This document shows positions 30,001 through 36,000 of a DNA stretch of 64,000 bases, piece after piece. A program made the position numbers. The stretch lies in the NCBI RefSeq assembly GCF_902652985.1, contig NC_047019.1, positions 7,998,001 to 8,062,000 on the forward strand, given 5' to 3'. The first letter of the stretch is position 1. Each line of letters begins with the position of its first letter. Source of the DNA: Pecten maximus (taxonomy: Eukaryota).

Positions 30001-33000
30001 AGATATAATATGCATATAATGTGTTTTATTGTAAAATAAATCTCCATTTCTTGTAATTTAAAACAGAGATACACGTTTGCAAGGTTATCACATTTCAATA
30101 CTGGGATTTTGATTTTTTGTTTCTTTTTCTTTTTGGGAATAATGAACAATGACAAAACAGAAATGTTGGAATTTGTTAATAAACATGGTCAGTATAATTG
30201 ATAAATGATACAGTCTTATATTGGAAATGACCGCCTGACGTCATACAGAGCCTCACGTCGAAAAATAATCTGTTTACGTTGGGATAAACGTCTAGCGTCC
30301 TTACATATATAGGGTTAATCCAAATCTCCTAAAAGGGCCATAAGAAGAGGAGCGTACTATGAGTGTTGAGCGTCAAACGTAAAAATGGGTTGTTACTGTT
30401 AGCGTCCTATCAACAGGGTTGTTACTGTTTAGCGTCCTATCAATAGGGTTGTTTCTGTTTAGCGTTCTATCAAGAGGATTGTTTCTGCTTAGCGTCCTAT
30501 CAACAGGGTTGTTTCTGTTTAGCGTTCTATCAAGAGGATTGTTACTGTTTAGCGTTCTATCAACATTTTTGTTACTGTTTAGCGTCCTATCAAGAGGTTA
30601 TTTCTGTTAAGCGTCCTATCAAGAGGGTTGTTACTGTTTAGCGTCCTATCAACAGGGTTGTTACTGCTTAGCGTCCTATAAAGAGGGTTGTTACTGTTTA
30701 GCGTCCTATCAAGAGGGTTGTTACTGTTTAGCGTCCTATCAAGAGGATTGTTACTGTTTAGCGTCCTATCAAGAGGATTGTTACTGTTTAGCATCCTATC
30801 AAGAGGGTTGTTACTGTTTAGCGTCCTATCAAGAGGGTTGTTACTGTTTAACGTCCTATCAAGAGGGTTGTTACTGTTTAGCGTTCTATCAAGAGGGTTG
30901 TTACTGTTTAGAGTCCTATCAAGAGTTTTCTTTCTGTTAAGAGTCATATCAACAGTTGTGTTACTGTTAAGAGTCATATCAACAGTTGTTTGTGCTGTTT
31001 AGCGTCCTAGCAAGAGTTTTGTTTCTGTTCAGCGTCCTAACAACAGTTTTGTTACCGTTAAACGTCCTATCAAGACTGTTAAGATTCATATCAACATTTT
31101 TGTTACTGTTAAGAGTCATATGAACAGGATTGTTACTGTTTCGTGTCCTATCAAGAGGGTTGTTACTGTTTAGTGTCCTATCAAGAGGGTTGTTACTGTT
31201 TAGCGTTCTCTCAAAAGGGTTGTTACTGTTCACGTACTATCAAGAGGATTGTTACTGCTTAGCGTCCTATCAAGAGGATTGTTACTGCTTAGCGTCCTAT
31301 CAAGAGGATTGTTACTGCTTAGCGTCCTATCAAGAGGATTGTTACTGCTTAGCGTCCTATCAAGAGGGTTGTTTCTGTTTAGCGTCCTATCAAGAGGGTT
31401 GTTACTGTTTAGCGTCCTATCAAGAGGGTTGTTACTGTTTAGCGTCCTATCAAGAGGGTTGTTACTGTTTAGCGTCCTATCAAGAGGGTTGTTACTGTTT
31501 AGTGTCCTATCAAGAGGGTTGTTACTGTTTAGCGTCCTATCAACAGTTGTGTTTCTGTTAAGAGTCATATCAACAGTTGTATTACTGTTAAGAGTCATAT
31601 CAACAGTTGTTTGTGCTGTTTAGCGTCCTAGCAAGAGTTTTGTTTCTGTTCAGCGTCCTAACAACAGATTTGTTACCGTTAAACGTCCTATCAAGACTGT
31701 TAAGATTCATATAAACATTTTTGTTACTGTTAAGAGTCATATGAACAGGATTGTTACTGTTTCGTGTCCTATCAAGAGGGTTGTTACTGTTTAGCGTTCT
31801 CTCAAAAGGGTTGTTACTGGTTAGCGTACTATCAAGAGGGTTGTTTCTGTTTAGCGTTCTATCAAGAGGGTTGTTACTGTTTAACGTCCTATCAAGAGGG
31901 TTGTTACTGTTTAGCGTCCTATCAACAGGGTTGTTACTGTTTAGCGTACTATCAAGAGGGTTGTTTCTGTTTAGCGTCCTATTAACAGGATTGTTACTGT
32001 TTAGCGTCCTATCAAGAGGGTTGTTTCTGTTTAGCGTCCTTTAAACAGGATTGTTACTGTTTAGCGTCCTATCAACAGGGTTGTTACTGTTTAGCGTCCT
32101 ATCAAGAGGGTTGTTACTGTTAACGTCCTATAAACAGGATTGTTACTGTTTAGCGTTCTATCAAGAGGGTTGTTACTGTTTAGCGTCCTATCAACAGGAT
32201 TGTTACTGTTTAGCGTCCTATCAACAGGATTGTTACTGTTTAGCGTTCTATCAAGAGGATTGTTACTGTTAAGCGTTCTATCAAGAGGGTTGTTACTGTT
32301 TAGCGTCCTATCAACAGGGTTGTTACTGTTTAGCGTCCTATCAAGAGGATTGTTACTGTTTAGCGTCCTATCAAGAGGATTGTTACTGTTTAGCGTTCTA
32401 TCAAGAGGGTTGTTACTGTTTAGCGTACTATCAAGAGGGTTGTTTCTGTTTAGCGTCCTATCAACAGGATTGTTACTGTTTAGCGTCCTATCAAGAGGGT
32501 TGTTTCTGTTTAGCGTCCTATAAACAGGATTGTTACTGTTTAGCGTCCTATCAACAGGGTTGTTACTGTTTAGCGTCCTATCAAGAGGGTTGTTACTGTT
32601 AACGTCCTATAAACAGGATTGTTACTGTTTAGCGTTCTATCAAGAGGGTTGTTACTGTTTAGCGTCCTATCAAGAGGATTGTTACTGTTTAGCGTCCTAT
32701 CAACAGGATTGTTACTGTTTAGCGTTCTATCAAGAGGATTGTTACTGTTAAGCGTTCTATCAAGAGGGTTGTTACTGTTTAGCGTTCTATCAAGAGGGTT
32801 GTTACTGTTTAACGTCCTATCAAGACTGTTGTTACTGTTTAGCGTTCTATCAAGAGGGTTGTTACTGTTTAACGTCCTATCAAGACTGTTGTTACTGTTT
32901 AGCGTTCTATCAAGAGGATTGTTACTGTTTAGCGTCCTATCAAGAGGATTGTTACTGTTTAGCGTTCTATCAAGAGGGTTGTTACTGTTTAACGTCCTAT

Positions 33001-36000
33001 CAAGACTGTTGTTACTGTTTAGCGTTCTATCAAGAGGGTTGTTACTGTTTAGCGTGCTATAAAGAGGGTTGTTACTGTTTAGCGTCCTATCAAGATGATT
33101 GTTACTGTTTAACGTCCTATCAAGAGGGTTGTTACTGTTTAGCGTTCTATCAAGAGGGTTGTTACTGTTTAGCGTCCTATCAACAGGGTTGTTACTGTTT
33201 AGAATTCTCTCAACAGTTTTGTTACTGTTTAGCGTCCTATAAAGAGGGTTGTTTCTGTTTAGCGTACTATCAAGAGGGTTGTTACTGTTCAGAATTCTCT
33301 CAACAGTTTTGTTACTGCTTAGCGTCCTATCAATAGTTTTGTTTCTGTTTAGCCTCCTATCAAGAGGATAGTTACTAGTTAGTGTCCTATCAACTTAGTT
33401 GTTACTGTTTAACGTCCTATCAACAGATTTTAATTGAAGGATGATACTTACCACTGTGTAGTGTCATTTCGTTAAAATGTCATACGCAGGCACATTTTTT
33501 TGTTATCTCTACCGGTTAACTGTGTGGCACTGCTTTTCACTTGTAGATTTCAATCAAGAAAAATGATCAGTAGATCCGTTATAGTGCCAGGTAAAGGGTA
33601 TCTATAAGTTTAGTGTAATCACTAGCCCCTTAATGCGATGTAAACAGCAGAAAATGTCATATTAAGACGGTGTTAAACCCCTCAAAACGAGGCGTCCATG
33701 GATAAAGTGTCATCCCAGTGACGCTTTTATAGTGCCATCACGCTGAAATGTCGTTCCCTGACATGTAGCCTGATACCCAACTTAGTGACATTATTTTGAA
33801 GGGTGGTGCCAGTGATGAATAAAATGATCATATGGTCTGGTAAATACTTGTTTTCTTTACTTTTCTACATTGATATTAATTTTATTCGGCTTTATCAAAA
33901 CTAACAATATGCAGGTCTTTAATGGAGGTATATTAGGTTTACGGCTACAGACTGAGTTATCGCGGCTCCTGTTTTTAAAAGTGATTTTATTTTCACACAG
34001 TTCGAAGCTTAAAGATGACATGTAAAGTAGCAATCAACGAATGCTGTATGAATACAAATGCAATTAATAGCGTTGTTGCACGAAATTTAAGCTCTGTTGT
34101 TGTTTTTTTCCGCCAACACAACAACAAAATATTTTCCCACAACACTTAAAGTACCATGTTATGTTAGAGTAAATACAAATATATATACAGAATAGCACAT
34201 AAACTAGTTACAGCTCCTTAAATACACATCAGATACATTAGATTGACACAGCAGAAACGATTTAAACATGAAAATTGAACATTATAACGTTAATCAAAGT
34301 GCTTTATAAATAAAAGTGTCGATAACAATAGTATAACGCAAGAAACCTAATCACTTGATTTTAAATTCACGGGTTTATTGCACATTTATGTGACATTAAA
34401 TATTGTAATCATACCTGCCTATTCAGGTAAGAATTGAGATTGACAACGATTTCATGAATGTGAAATTGCAGTATACTGAATTATCCCCAAACCTCCCCGG
34501 ATGTGTTATATGTACTTTACAGGGTTGCACTTTATAAGCAAAACCCAAACTAGTGATCCTTATAGAACGTCAGATCATCTGATAGTGGGAATACTGACAG
34601 CTCAATGTATGTAAGGATGTTTTACTATGGTATGCTAAGGTCATTAATTAGCACACTTAGTAGCTGTGGGCGTTGTTAGAGATGAAATTGTATTCAGCAC
34701 ACGTTCAACACACAGACAGATCTAATTAACCTATCTCTTTACTATACACGGTTAAACGATAGATAAGCGGTTCCCTTGTTAACGTATAGTTTGTGATATG
34801 TTAGACTCGTGTTGTGTGGAGTTTGTCTTGTAGTGCAACCCAATAAAATCTTGATCATATGTCTACATGTCGCTAATGGGGACCACGTCCTGTCCTACTA
34901 AAACTGTCCAATATCACGAACTCGTAATTGGCAATGCGGTGCAATTAAATAAGAAAACAATGATATTTATATACCTATTGCCTAAAACATGAATTATACG
35001 TAAATATTATCTTGTATATAAATTGATAAGACTGTCTAGTGAATATTATTATCCTCATTGTAATACATTGTACATATCGGCCCATCACATAACAGCAAAT
35101 ATCATGAAGCCATCAACTAGTATATCTATCTATGACATGATTACCATGGTATTAAGTGAATACAACTTGAAATATCTTCCAAATCAATACTTGTAATGTC
35201 ACTCAATGCGAATGATTGATTCATGAAATAGTTAATAAATGACGTCATCTCATTTTTCAACGTTGTATGATGACGTCATAATGTAGAAAACAAACTAATG
35301 TAGTAAAGTATGCCTGTTGCCTAATATTCCCATTGTAGCAAAGATCTGCACAATAAAACATTCTGAAATGAAATGTAGAAAATTGATGGCGAGGAAAGAT
35401 GACAGTATTTATATATCACAATATTCGAAAAACGTCAGTTTCATTTGAAATTTTAGGTGAAATCGTCTCGATCTCGTTTAACTCACGAAAAGGTAGGTAA
35501 GGAGGTGACAAAGCTGTACCAGAGCAACGTCCTCTTTACTGGGAAAAAATCGAGATTTCTATTTCAATTAAACCTGTTATAATTAAGAAAGTGGGGACCG
35601 TAGCATAACTGAAATGTCCTAGAAGAACGAAACAGTTGTATGTTACAGCTTTTTAACACATTGTACATTAATTTCATGCTTATAACAGTTGCCTAATTGT
35701 TGTGCCTTTAATACATGGGTATAATCATGTGGAGACTAAATTTGAATTTAAAACGATGGGTAATTTAAAAGGACAGTAGATGTAACACTGATTCGATGAC
35801 TAACATATATACATGATAATTTACTATTATCACTTGGTTTTTTTTCTACTTTTGACATTTTTATTCAGATTTTCCACATAAAGTATTCACATGATACAGA
35901 AAGAAACAATGACAACTTTCACACACACTTACCGACACAAACTGTATACAATTGTATATCTATAACTTGAATACAAAGTAGGTACATTGTAGCTTAGCTA

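What the first reader, a model, noticed from the sequence alone, without database searches (positions are those of the whole stretch)
30387..33520. A 3-kb satellite apparently born from a SINE 3' terminus
Seen: on the minus strand the monomer reads TCTTGATAGGACGCTAAACAGTAACAACCC. The first monomer (33426 to 33408, CTGTTGATAGGACGTTAAA) is identical over 19 nt to the SINE 3' end at 44892-44910 and similar to the ends near 26630, 49190 and 51575. Just upstream it is preceded by TCCTT at similar spacing to the SINE (TCCTTCAATTAAAAT vs TCCTTAAAAGACCTTAG) and by a decayed SINE-like body (33450-33520). Established: SINE 3' ends are recognition sites for a partner LINE reverse transcriptase. Inference: the terminal motif plus the start of the tail was reiterated ~100 times, by template slippage during reverse transcription and/or later unequal exchange. 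A transcript through the array would present ~100 potential RT-recognition sites. This is the best candidate for something undescribed here.
Basis: partly seen in the sequence, partly recalled or inferred. Interest (0 to 1): 0.7.

Follow-up and report, generated by a model that had tools for sequence, protein, structure and literature searches.

The report
Minisatellite built from a retroposon tail
A 3-kb run of about 100 copies of a 30-base unit is real, and the unit was copied from the conserved end-piece of a family of small jumping elements, an ordinary and already described way for repeat arrays to arise.

Summary
The array is real: 30387-33423, period 30, 101.9 copies. Its unit is homologous to the conserved 3' block of a retroposon tail found at five dispersed sites in the window. 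A monomer profile finds four tail sites as its four best hits outside the array. A tail profile built without the array hits 74 monomers, all on the minus strand, all on tail positions 35/38-64 of 75. The first monomer scores best.

The "decayed SINE body" upstream is not supported. Only about 20 nt holding TCCTT may be a tail remnant, and that is inconclusive. The site with the 19-nt identity (44892) is a tail-only fragment, not a demonstrable SINE.

Growth at the DNA level is shown by a 12-monomer block duplicated at 356/359 identity. Reverse-transcriptase slippage is untested. No monomer holds the 5' arm of the predicted tail hairpin (0 CGTCCT against 58 AGGACG), so "100 recognition sites" is doubtful.

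SINE- and LINE-tail-derived satellites are in print. This is a new member of a known kind, of low to moderate interest. No eukaryotic genome collection was on hand, so other arrays and orthologous loci stayed unchecked.

The parts
30387..33426 (-). Tandem array of about 102 units of 30 bp. The minus-strand consensus occurs unchanged, for example, at 32676-32647.
   Evidence: TRF: period 30, 101.9 copies, 86% matches; monomer table; sequence.
33399..33426 (-). First (5'-most) monomer. It holds the 19-nt identity with 44892-44910 and is the best array match to the tail profile.
   Evidence: 0 mismatches. (18.1 bits, E 1.4e-4; next monomer 16.1 bits; tail-profile positions 35-62); the only one of 102 monomers with both tail-like states G3 and T15. 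Against: by pairwise 30-nt score it ties with 8 monomers against 44892 and ranks 7, 3 and 4 against the other tails.
33427..33446 (-). Upstream flank holding TCCTT (33441-33437). It may be a remnant of the 5' arm and loop of the tail hairpin; this is inconclusive.
   Evidence: p 0.0078 for TCCTT at that spacing, post hoc; score 16 against the 51357 tail, p 0.014; p 0.074 for the maximum over five tails; real tails score 16-18 against each other; nothing further upstream.
30253..30386 (-). Downstream flank with weak relics of decayed monomers, making the 3' edge fuzzy.
   Evidence: array self-alignments reach 30364. (p 0.010 with the main trimer, 0.020 with edge monomers). nhmmer gave no hit with E<10 here.
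32408..32766 (-). Block of 12 monomers (numbers 23-34) duplicated at 31929-32287 (numbers 39-50), 479 bp away.
   Evidence: 356/359 identical; lag-16 run of monomers at least 29/30 identical.
31929..32287 (-). Second copy of the 12-monomer block.
31517..31838 (-). Older duplicated block that holds the divergent variant monomers. Its partner is 30896-31247.
   Evidence: 312/353 identical.
30896..31247 (-). Partner of the older duplicated block.
26430..26662 (+). Full-length SINE-like copy (233 bp): head with a B-box-like GTTCGAAGC, body with TTTT followed by CT, and a tail with the predicted stem 26596-26603 / 26630-26637.
51357..51560 (+). SINE-like copy with a diverged tail, lying tail-to-tail with the next copy.
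   Evidence: tail profile E 5e-11.
51561..51712 (-). Short SINE-like copy with an internal deletion: head plus tail.
   Evidence: E 6.1e-15.
44866..44931 (+). Tail-only fragment with no SINE head or body. It holds the 19-nt identity and the predicted stem 44873-44878 / 44900-44905.
   Evidence: E 9.3e-16.
49170..49237 (-). Tail-only fragment with a decayed 5' arm.
   Evidence: E 4e-16.

Best explanation
This is a non-coding tandem array of minisatellite to small-satellite grade. Its 30-bp unit was copied from the conserved 3' block of a retroposon tail, the LINE-type tail module that ends the SINE-like copies in this window. The unit matches tail-profile positions 35-64 of 75.

The most likely source was a short tail-only fragment such as those at 44892 and 49192. 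That would be a severely 5'-truncated retrocopy of the SINE or its partner LINE, not a full SINE (inferred). An initial duplication of the last roughly 30 nt was followed by growth and partial homogenisation through unequal exchange or replication slippage of blocks of monomers. Block duplication is shown; the seeding step is inferred.

The homogenised interior drifted to derived states (C at unit positions 3 and 15), while the 5' edge monomer kept the tail-like states. No function is indicated, and I take the array to be neutral repeat DNA.
For: Homology of unit and tail:
- A profile of 76 monomer dimers, run on the window with the array masked, gives as its four best hits exactly the four tail sites: 44892 (E 0.0026), 49210-49184 (E 0.0026), 51598-51578 (E 0.42) and 26625-26643 (E 0.48).
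- The reciprocal tail profile was built from the five dispersed tails only. After those five, 74 of 82 further hits at E<=10 are array monomers, all on the minus strand, all on profile positions 35/38-64.
- The 19-mer gives 85 matches against 0.02 expected.

Edge retention:
- The first monomer is the top array hit to the tail profile (18.1 against 16.1 bits).
- It is the only one of 102 monomers with both G3 and T15 (G3 in 30 of 102, T15 in 8 of 102).

DNA-level growth:
- Monomers 23-34 and 39-50 are 356/359 identical at a 479-bp offset. A second block pair is 312/353 identical.
- The edge monomers diverge from the consensus by 15%, against 5-7% in most of the interior; blocks 55-60 and 79-84 reach 26% and 48%, the latter inflated by a phase slip.

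Tail-only source:
- Two of five tail modules in the window lack any head or body.
- The array's homology starts at the same tail position in every monomer.

Non-coding context: 0 credible Pfam hits in the 150 longest of 196 stop-to-stop frames of at least 55 aa outside arrays. One sub-threshold hit scored 17.3 bits against a 24.3-bit cut-off.
Against: - Direction is not proven from one window. A satellite unit captured as a retroposon tail, or a common LINE 3' UTR source, would give the same similarity.
- By pairwise score over 30 nt the first monomer is not unique. It ties with 8 monomers against 44892, ranks 7, 3 and 4 against the other tails, and is fourth in the sum.
- No target-site duplication was found; the longest word shared by the flanks is 7 nt against a null mean of 7.9. 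The test lacks power, because the full copy at 26430 and the fragment at 44892 also show no exact repeat of 7 nt or more.
- The seeding step was not observed. A reverse-transcriptase origin of the first few units cannot be excluded.
- The TCCTT flank is only suggestive.
Confidence: 0.6

Rival explanations
1. A complete SINE inserted here, its terminal motif was reiterated about 100 times (by reverse-transcriptase template slippage and/or later exchange), and the body at 33450-33520 has since decayed.
For: - Same polarity; the first monomer is the most tail-like.
- TCCTT lies at similar spacing (p 0.0078).
- The flank scores 16 against the 51357 tail upstream, within the 16-18 range that real tails give each other.
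Against: - No similarity of the upstream 50-150 nt to any SINE body in the window: z 0.1 to 0.7, p 0.23-0.97, p(max) 0.29 at L=50 while SINE-body controls give 0.0025-0.003.
- No B-box-like or head-core motif in the 400 nt upstream.
- Edge monomers are only about 15% diverged, so a body of the same age should still align.
- No target-site duplication, though this test has low power.
Confidence: 0.1
2. The array, or a multi-unit seed of it, was made in a single retroposition event. The partner LINE's reverse transcriptase jumped back repeatedly on the tail template, and the product was 5'-truncated.
For: - The sharp 5' boundary starts at a fixed tail position.
- Terminal-repeat slippage is described for stringent-type LINEs such as UnaL2 (PMC3747384, passages). 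The same paper's reference list cites a mosquito SINE study whose title names slippage retrotransposition.
Against: - Known slippage units are short terminal repeats, not 30-nt units.
- The 3' edge is fuzzy, with decayed relics rather than a clean junction.
- Internal block duplications and a divergent interior block show DNA-level remodelling.
- No target-site duplication.
Confidence: 0.12
3. The direction is reversed, or there is a third source. The retroposon family acquired its tail block from a pre-existing satellite unit, or both derive from a LINE 3' UTR that already held the repeat.
For: Similarity is confined to exactly one unit length, tail positions 35-64. Tails are modular and exchanged among SINE families (PMC4758252 and PMC11481361, passages).
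Against: - The tail block lies at five dispersed, mutually diverged sites, embedded in a longer shared module that includes the predicted stem's 5' arm in three of them.
- The array is a single locus in the window.
- The tail-like states are the minority in the array and are held by the edge monomer.
Confidence: 0.1
4. The array is cargo of another mobile element, as with the Helentron-borne satellite-like arrays of oysters, and only resembles the tail.
For: Such arrays are common in oysters (PMC7492417 and PMC8268682, search-listing abstracts). The window is very rich in unrelated short-unit arrays.
Against: - The flanks of the array are unique in the window.
- The unit is unrelated to the units of the other eight arrays compared.
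- The reciprocal profile matches to the tails are specific.
- Helitron-type termini were not specifically searched.
Confidence: 0.05
5. The resemblance is due to chance.
For: None beyond the shortness of the unit.
Against: (85 matches against 0.02 expected). (the four best hits are the four tails). (74 of 82 further hits are array monomers, in one orientation and one register).
Confidence: 0.01

Closest known systems
SINE-derived satellites (sSats) of squamate reptiles (Vassetzky et al. 2023, PMC10702118; abstract and sections 3 and 19 read)
   Same: Tandem arrays whose unit is a portion of a SINE. Loci are modest in size and incompletely homogenised, and growth is attributed to duplication followed by unequal exchange.
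   Different: There, a longer terminal unit usually continues into the SINE up to its terminus. Here the 5' continuation is at most about 20 nt and inconclusive, and no body is present. The host here looks like an invertebrate. The unit is the extreme 3' LINE-type block. Whether there are multiple loci is unknown.
Tandem-like and palindromic SINE structures in bivalves (Martelossi et al. 2024, PMC11481361; passages and section 13 read)
   Same: SINE-related tandem structures occur in bivalve genomes. The authors note that fragment-based tandems may have been missed and call for targeted screening. The tail-to-tail SINE pair at 51357-51712 resembles their palindromic structures.
   Different: Their arrays are of whole or truncated SINEs (2-15 units, hits of at least 150 bp), not about 100 copies of a 30-nt tail block.
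Minisatellites and satellites born from SINEs and from LINE 3' UTRs (review PMC9659126; passages and table: mouse B1 VNTR, Alu-derived minisatellites, common cetacean satellite from the L1 3' UTR, chicken HinfI/CR1, Drosophila 18HT from the HeT-A/TART 3' UTR)
   Same: A short piece of a non-LTR retroposon, often its 3' part, becomes the unit of a tandem array.
   Different: Different hosts and elements. None of the listed cases is a bivalve SINE or LINE tail; the bivalve entries there are pearl/MITE-related.
3'-terminal tandem repeats of stringent-type LINEs and SINEs made by template slippage (UnaL2 TGTAA repeats; PMC3747384, passages; PMC4758252, passages)
   Same: Reiteration at the extreme 3' end of a LINE-recognised tail.
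   Different: Those units are 2-6 nt and few in number. Here the unit is 30 nt, there are about 102 copies, and there is clear DNA-level block duplication.
Transposon-associated satellite DNAs of oysters (PMC8268682, PMC11136912, PMC7492417; search listings, plus a term search of the first two)
   Same: Many short, scattered arrays linked to mobile elements in an AT-rich genome.
   Different: Those are linked to DNA transposons or Helentrons. The word SINE occurs 0 times in the main text of PMC8268682 and PMC11136912.

Membership tests
Tandem satellite / minisatellite DNA | Head-to-tail array of a short non-coding unit | tested here: met
   (period 30, 101.9 copies).
Tandem satellite / minisatellite DNA | Multi-locus or high genomic abundance (needed to call it a proper satellite) | not testable with these tools
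   No eukaryotic genome collection was on hand. There is one locus in the window, and two scans of prokaryote genome contigs gave 0 hits.
SINE-derived satellite (sSat, PMC10702118) | Unit similar to a portion of a SINE of the same genome | tested here: met
   (reciprocal profiles).
SINE-derived satellite (sSat, PMC10702118) | Longer terminal unit that continues into the SINE up to its terminus | tested here: inconclusive
   The first roughly 20 nt upstream give p 0.014 (single tail) and 0.074 (maximum over five tails), comparable to real-tail controls. Beyond that there is no similarity. The 3' end shows no terminal simple repeat.
   (L=50).
   None found. The control copies at 26430 and 44892 also show no exact repeat of 7 nt or more.
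Stringent-type LINE/SINE 3' recognition stem-loop, one per monomer | Both arms of the tail stem present in the repeated unit | tested here: not met
   The stem is predicted in three of five tails (fold z-scores not significant, no covariation). The array holds AGGACG 58 times and CGTCCT 0 times. A monomer trimer folds no better than shuffles (z 0.18).
tRNA-derived SINE (the dispersed copies at 26430, 51357 and 51712) | Short interspersed copies sharing head, body and tail; pol III B box; tRNA-like head | tested here: inconclusive
   Three copies share the head at 78-86% identity and a B-box-like GTTCGAAGC is present. However, ARAGORN and Rfam call no tRNA and my recalled A-box pattern did not match. 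The tRNA origin rests on recall.
Bivalve V/Vhc SINE superfamily (PMC4758252, section 11) | Internal run of 4-5 T followed by C or CT | tested here: met
   TTTT then CT in 26430 and TTTTT then CT in 51357. The paper states this for Vhc_1 and Vhc_2.
Bivalve V/Vhc SINE superfamily (PMC4758252, section 11) | Homology to the V-domain / 39-bp Vhc block | not testable with these tools
The paper's supplement was not searchable. The resemblance is recalled only.

The most novel reading that the evidence does not exclude
The LINE-recognised 3' block of this tail family is itself prone to long reiteration by the partner reverse transcriptase, through template jumping over a 30-nt register. Arrays like this would then be single retroposition products that recur across the genome, always in tail polarity. 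They would serve as sinks or small-RNA sources for the LINE/SINE pair, making this a retroposition-coupled route to satellite birth in (probably) bivalves.
Probability: 0.07. Interest if true: 0.65.

Novelty: new member of a known kind. Interest (0 to 1): 0.27.

Why it matters
This is a clean single-locus example of a tandem array seeded by the terminal block of a LINE-type retroposon tail. The edge monomer still carries the source sequence, and the interior shows block duplication. It lies in a genome that looks invertebrate, possibly bivalve (a guess from SINE features).

A 2024 paper on bivalve SINEs explicitly says that fragment-based SINE tandems may have been missed there (PMC11481361, passages). 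The locus could therefore seed a targeted screen.

It does not open a new question. Transposon-to-satellite conversion, including from SINEs and LINE 3' ends, is established.

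Tried and rejected
- **SINE body upstream:** BLAST, local alignment with shuffles, 3'-anchored alignment and motif search found nothing. Rejected.
- **Decayed monomers in the upstream flank:** not significant, p 0.07-0.28 for 33427-33560. The downstream flank is weakly positive (p 0.01-0.02), but nhmmer gave no hit there.
- **Target-site duplications:** none at the array and none in the controls, so the test is uninformative.
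- **tRNA and RNA families:** ARAGORN gave 0 and Rfam gathering threshold gave 0 over the whole window.
- **Coding context and partner LINE:** the only frames of 120 aa or more outside repeats are few. Pfam on the 150 longest of 196 frames found no reverse transcriptase or transposase. The other 46 frames were not scanned.
- **Array as part of an element repeated in the window:** self-BLAST shows unique flanks.
- **Relation to the other arrays:** none for the 30-bp unit.
- **Higher-order periodicity:** there is no regular one. Mean identity by lag shows only a lag-16 bump (0.819) and a broader rise from lag 20-21 (0.830 at lag 21), both from block duplications.
- **First regex chunking of monomers:** it failed, returning 13 hits, and was replaced. 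loses phase in monomers 80-84, so column statistics there are unreliable.
- **Scans of prokaryote genome contigs for host contamination carrying the unit or the SINE head:** 0 and 0.
- **Literature:**
  - Sequence motifs were not found in three supplementary files of PMC11481361.
  - The supplement of PMC4758252 could not be searched.
  - A full-text motif search found only a clam qPCR primer, which is a lead and not evidence.
  - One search call failed on a malformed term.

Full report
**Scope and limits**

The window has no N. Other arrays of this family, orthologous loci and curated SINE/LINE consensus libraries therefore stayed unchecked. The supplement of PMC4758252, which holds SINE consensus sequences, could not be searched, and bioRxiv supplements were closed. 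Either could bear on the family assignment.

**1. The observation**

TRF reports one array at 30387-33423 with period 30, 101.9 copies and 86% matches. Sequential fitting to the consensus gives 102 monomers, 86 of them exactly 30 nt and ungapped. The fitting loses phase in monomers 80-84.

The 19-mer of the first monomer (33426-33408, minus strand) is identical to 44892-44910 (plus strand). With up to 3 mismatches the only matches outside the array are:
- 26623-26641 (3 mismatches)
- 49192-49210 (2 mismatches)
- 51580-51598 (2 mismatches)

In all there are 85 matches against 0.02 expected from shuffles.

TCCTT lies 15 nt upstream of the 19-mer at the array and 17 nt upstream at 44892. The chance of that at a random site is 0.0078, or 143 of 18230 sites. 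This test was chosen after seeing the data.

**2. What the dispersed sites are**

Three copies share a head and body:
- 26430-26662 (+), 233 bp
- 51357-51560 (+)
- 51561-51712 (-), internally deleted

They are 78-86% identical to each other. The last two lie tail to tail.

These copies have a B-box-like GTTCGAAGC and a run of four or five T followed by CT. Matetovici et al. state that this feature marks bivalve Vhc SINEs (PMC4758252, section 11). ARAGORN and Rfam call no tRNA anywhere in the window. The tRNA origin and the V-domain likeness therefore rest on my recall, not on a test.

The sites at 44892 and 49192 share only the roughly 40-65-nt tail module and no head or body. They are tail-only fragments: 5'-truncated copies, another SINE family, or LINE 3' ends. 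No reverse transcriptase or other domain was found in the 150 longest of 196 open frames outside arrays, so the partner LINE is not in the window.

**3. Is the unit homologous to the tail?**

Yes, by two reciprocal profile searches.

The first used a profile of 76 monomer dimers on the window with the array masked. Its four best hits are exactly the four tail sites:

| Site | E-value |
|---|---|
| 44892 | 0.0026 |
| 49210-49184 | 0.0026 |
| 51598-51578 | 0.42 |
| 26625-26643 | 0.48 |

The next hits are 4285-4306 and 4377-4411, at E 1.1 and 1.6.

The second used a 75-position profile built from the five dispersed tails alone. It recovers those five (E 7.6e-17 to 5e-11). Of the 82 further hits at E<=10, 74 are array monomers, all on the minus strand, all on profile positions 35/38 to 64. 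The unit is therefore the conserved block that begins at CTGTT and runs into the first A/C-rich terminal repeat. No monomer, the first included, aligns to profile positions 1-34.

**4. Is the array anchored on a SINE?**

No body is detectable.
- BLAST of 33400-33800 finds only the 19-mer outside the array.
- Local alignment of the 150 nt upstream against the upstream of four tails gives z = 0.1, -0.4, -0.8 and 0.7. The two head-bearing copies give z = 20.7 against each other.
- 3'-anchored alignment over 20-60 nt gives p = 0.23-0.97, while the control pair 44892 vs 26623 gives p = 0.002-0.016 at 30-60 nt but 0.29 at 20 nt.
- There is no B-box-like or head-core motif in the 400 nt upstream.

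A low-power test restricted to 25 nt gives the array flank a score of 16 against the 51357 tail. That is p 0.014 singly and 0.074 for the maximum over five tails. Real tails score 16-18 against each other in the same test, with p 0.02-0.05. At 50 nt the array gives p 0.29, while SINE-body controls give 0.0025-0.003.

So about 20 nt upstream, with TCCTT, may be the remnant of the tail's loop and 5' stem arm. Beyond that there is nothing SINE-like.

No target-site duplication is seen: the longest shared word is 7 nt against a null mean of 7.9. The full copy at 26430 and the fragment at 44892 also show none of 7 nt or more, so this test says little.

**5. Polarity and the edge monomer**

- Under the tail profile the first monomer is the best of the array (18.1 bits, next 16.1).
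- It is the only one of 102 monomers with both tail-like states G3 (30 of 102) and T15 (8 of 102).
- Against this, by pairwise score over 30 nt it ties with 8 monomers against 44892, ranks 7, 3 and 4 against the other three tails, and is fourth in the sum.

I read this as modest support for the 5' edge preserving the ancestral unit.

**6. How the array grew**

Monomers 23-34 (32766-32408) and 39-50 (32287-31929) are 356/359 identical at a 479-bp offset. A second pair (31838-31517 and 31247-30896), which holds divergent variant monomers, is 312/353 identical.

Monomers 1-6 differ from the consensus by 15%, against 5-7% for most of the interior; blocks 55-60 and 79-84 reach 26% and 48%, the latter where the chunking lost phase. 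The 3' edge fades into weak relics: self-alignments reach 30364, and the flank test gives p 0.01-0.02, although nhmmer finds no hit there.

These are the marks of unequal exchange or replication slippage acting on blocks, with less homogenised edges. They show DNA-level growth. They do not show how the first duplication arose.

**7. The 'hundred recognition sites'**

In three of five tails, the minimum-energy fold pairs the AGGACG(T) of the conserved block with an upstream (A)CGTCCT(T):
- 26596-26603 with 26630-37
- 44873-78 with 44900-05
- also in the 51357 tail

It does not do so at 51712, 49192 or the array start. The fold z-scores are not significant and there is no covariation, so the stem is an inference.

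Stringent-type LINEs are said to recognise such 3' stem-loops (PMC3747384, passages). The array holds AGGACG 58 times and CGTCCT 0 times, and a monomer trimer folds no better than shuffles (z 0.18). If recognition needs the stem, the monomers are half-sites. This is untested.

**8. What is known**

- SINE-derived satellites are described in 56 squamate genomes, typically with a longer terminal unit continuing into the SINE (PMC10702118; abstract and sections 3 and 19).
- A review lists minisatellites from Alu and B1, and satellites from LINE 3' UTRs: cetacean L1, chicken CR1 and Drosophila HeT-A/TART (PMC9659126; passages and table).
- Bivalve SINEs form tandem and palindromic structures. The authors say fragment-based tandems may have been missed (PMC11481361; passages and section 13).
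- The two oyster satellitome papers do not use the word SINE in their main text. My searches for a bivalve SINE-tail satellite found none, which is not proof of absence.

**9. Verdict**

The array and the unit-to-tail homology are real and far beyond chance. The SINE-body anchor is not supported. The likeliest source is a short tail-only fragment, with later growth by block duplication. The reverse-transcriptase origin and any decoy role are open but unsupported. This is a new member of a known kind, and interest is low to moderate.

Noticed in passing
51357-51712: Two SINE-like copies lie tail to tail: (+) 51357-51560 and (-) 51561-51712. Together they form a palindromic pair like the inverted SINE structures described in bivalves (PMC11481361).
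   Followed up: partly
2617-3124, 41200-41245, 41231-42155: The 39-bp, 21-bp and 17-bp arrays have related units (p<0.01 against shuffled units). One repeat family therefore seems to have spawned arrays of different period 38 kb apart.
   Followed up: partly
whole window: Tandem arrays sum to about 8.8 kb, roughly 14% of the window (my sum of coordinates). They include a 38-bp array at 56889-58606 and a 36-bp array at 62355-64000 that runs off the window. There were no credible Pfam domains in the 150 frames scanned. The region looks like a gene-poor, array-prone stretch.
   Followed up: partly
4285-4306 and 4377-4411 (+): Two weak monomer-like hits (E 1.1 and 1.6) lie 92 nt apart on the same strand. 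They may be a decayed relic of the same unit family, or chance.
   Followed up: no
12042-12217 / 12226-12396: A roughly 175-bp segment is duplicated in tandem at 82% identity.
   Followed up: no
45049-45149 / 45230-45329: A direct repeat of about 100 bp at 77% identity lies just downstream of the tail-only fragment at 44892.
   Followed up: no
array unit (e.g. 32676-32647): A published qPCR primer for Hsp70 of the clam Corbicula fluminea contains a 13-nt stretch identical to the unit core (PMC3820681). This is only a lead that the block may occur in bivalve transcripts.
   Followed up: no
30387-33426, junctions between monomers: 27 unit junctions read TCCT a few bases before AGGA of the next unit, which could form a 4-bp mini-hairpin. 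The same ATCCT precedes the first monomer 15 nt upstream. Whether the unit's end descends from the tail's 5' stem arm or from its terminal repeat is unresolved.
   Followed up: no
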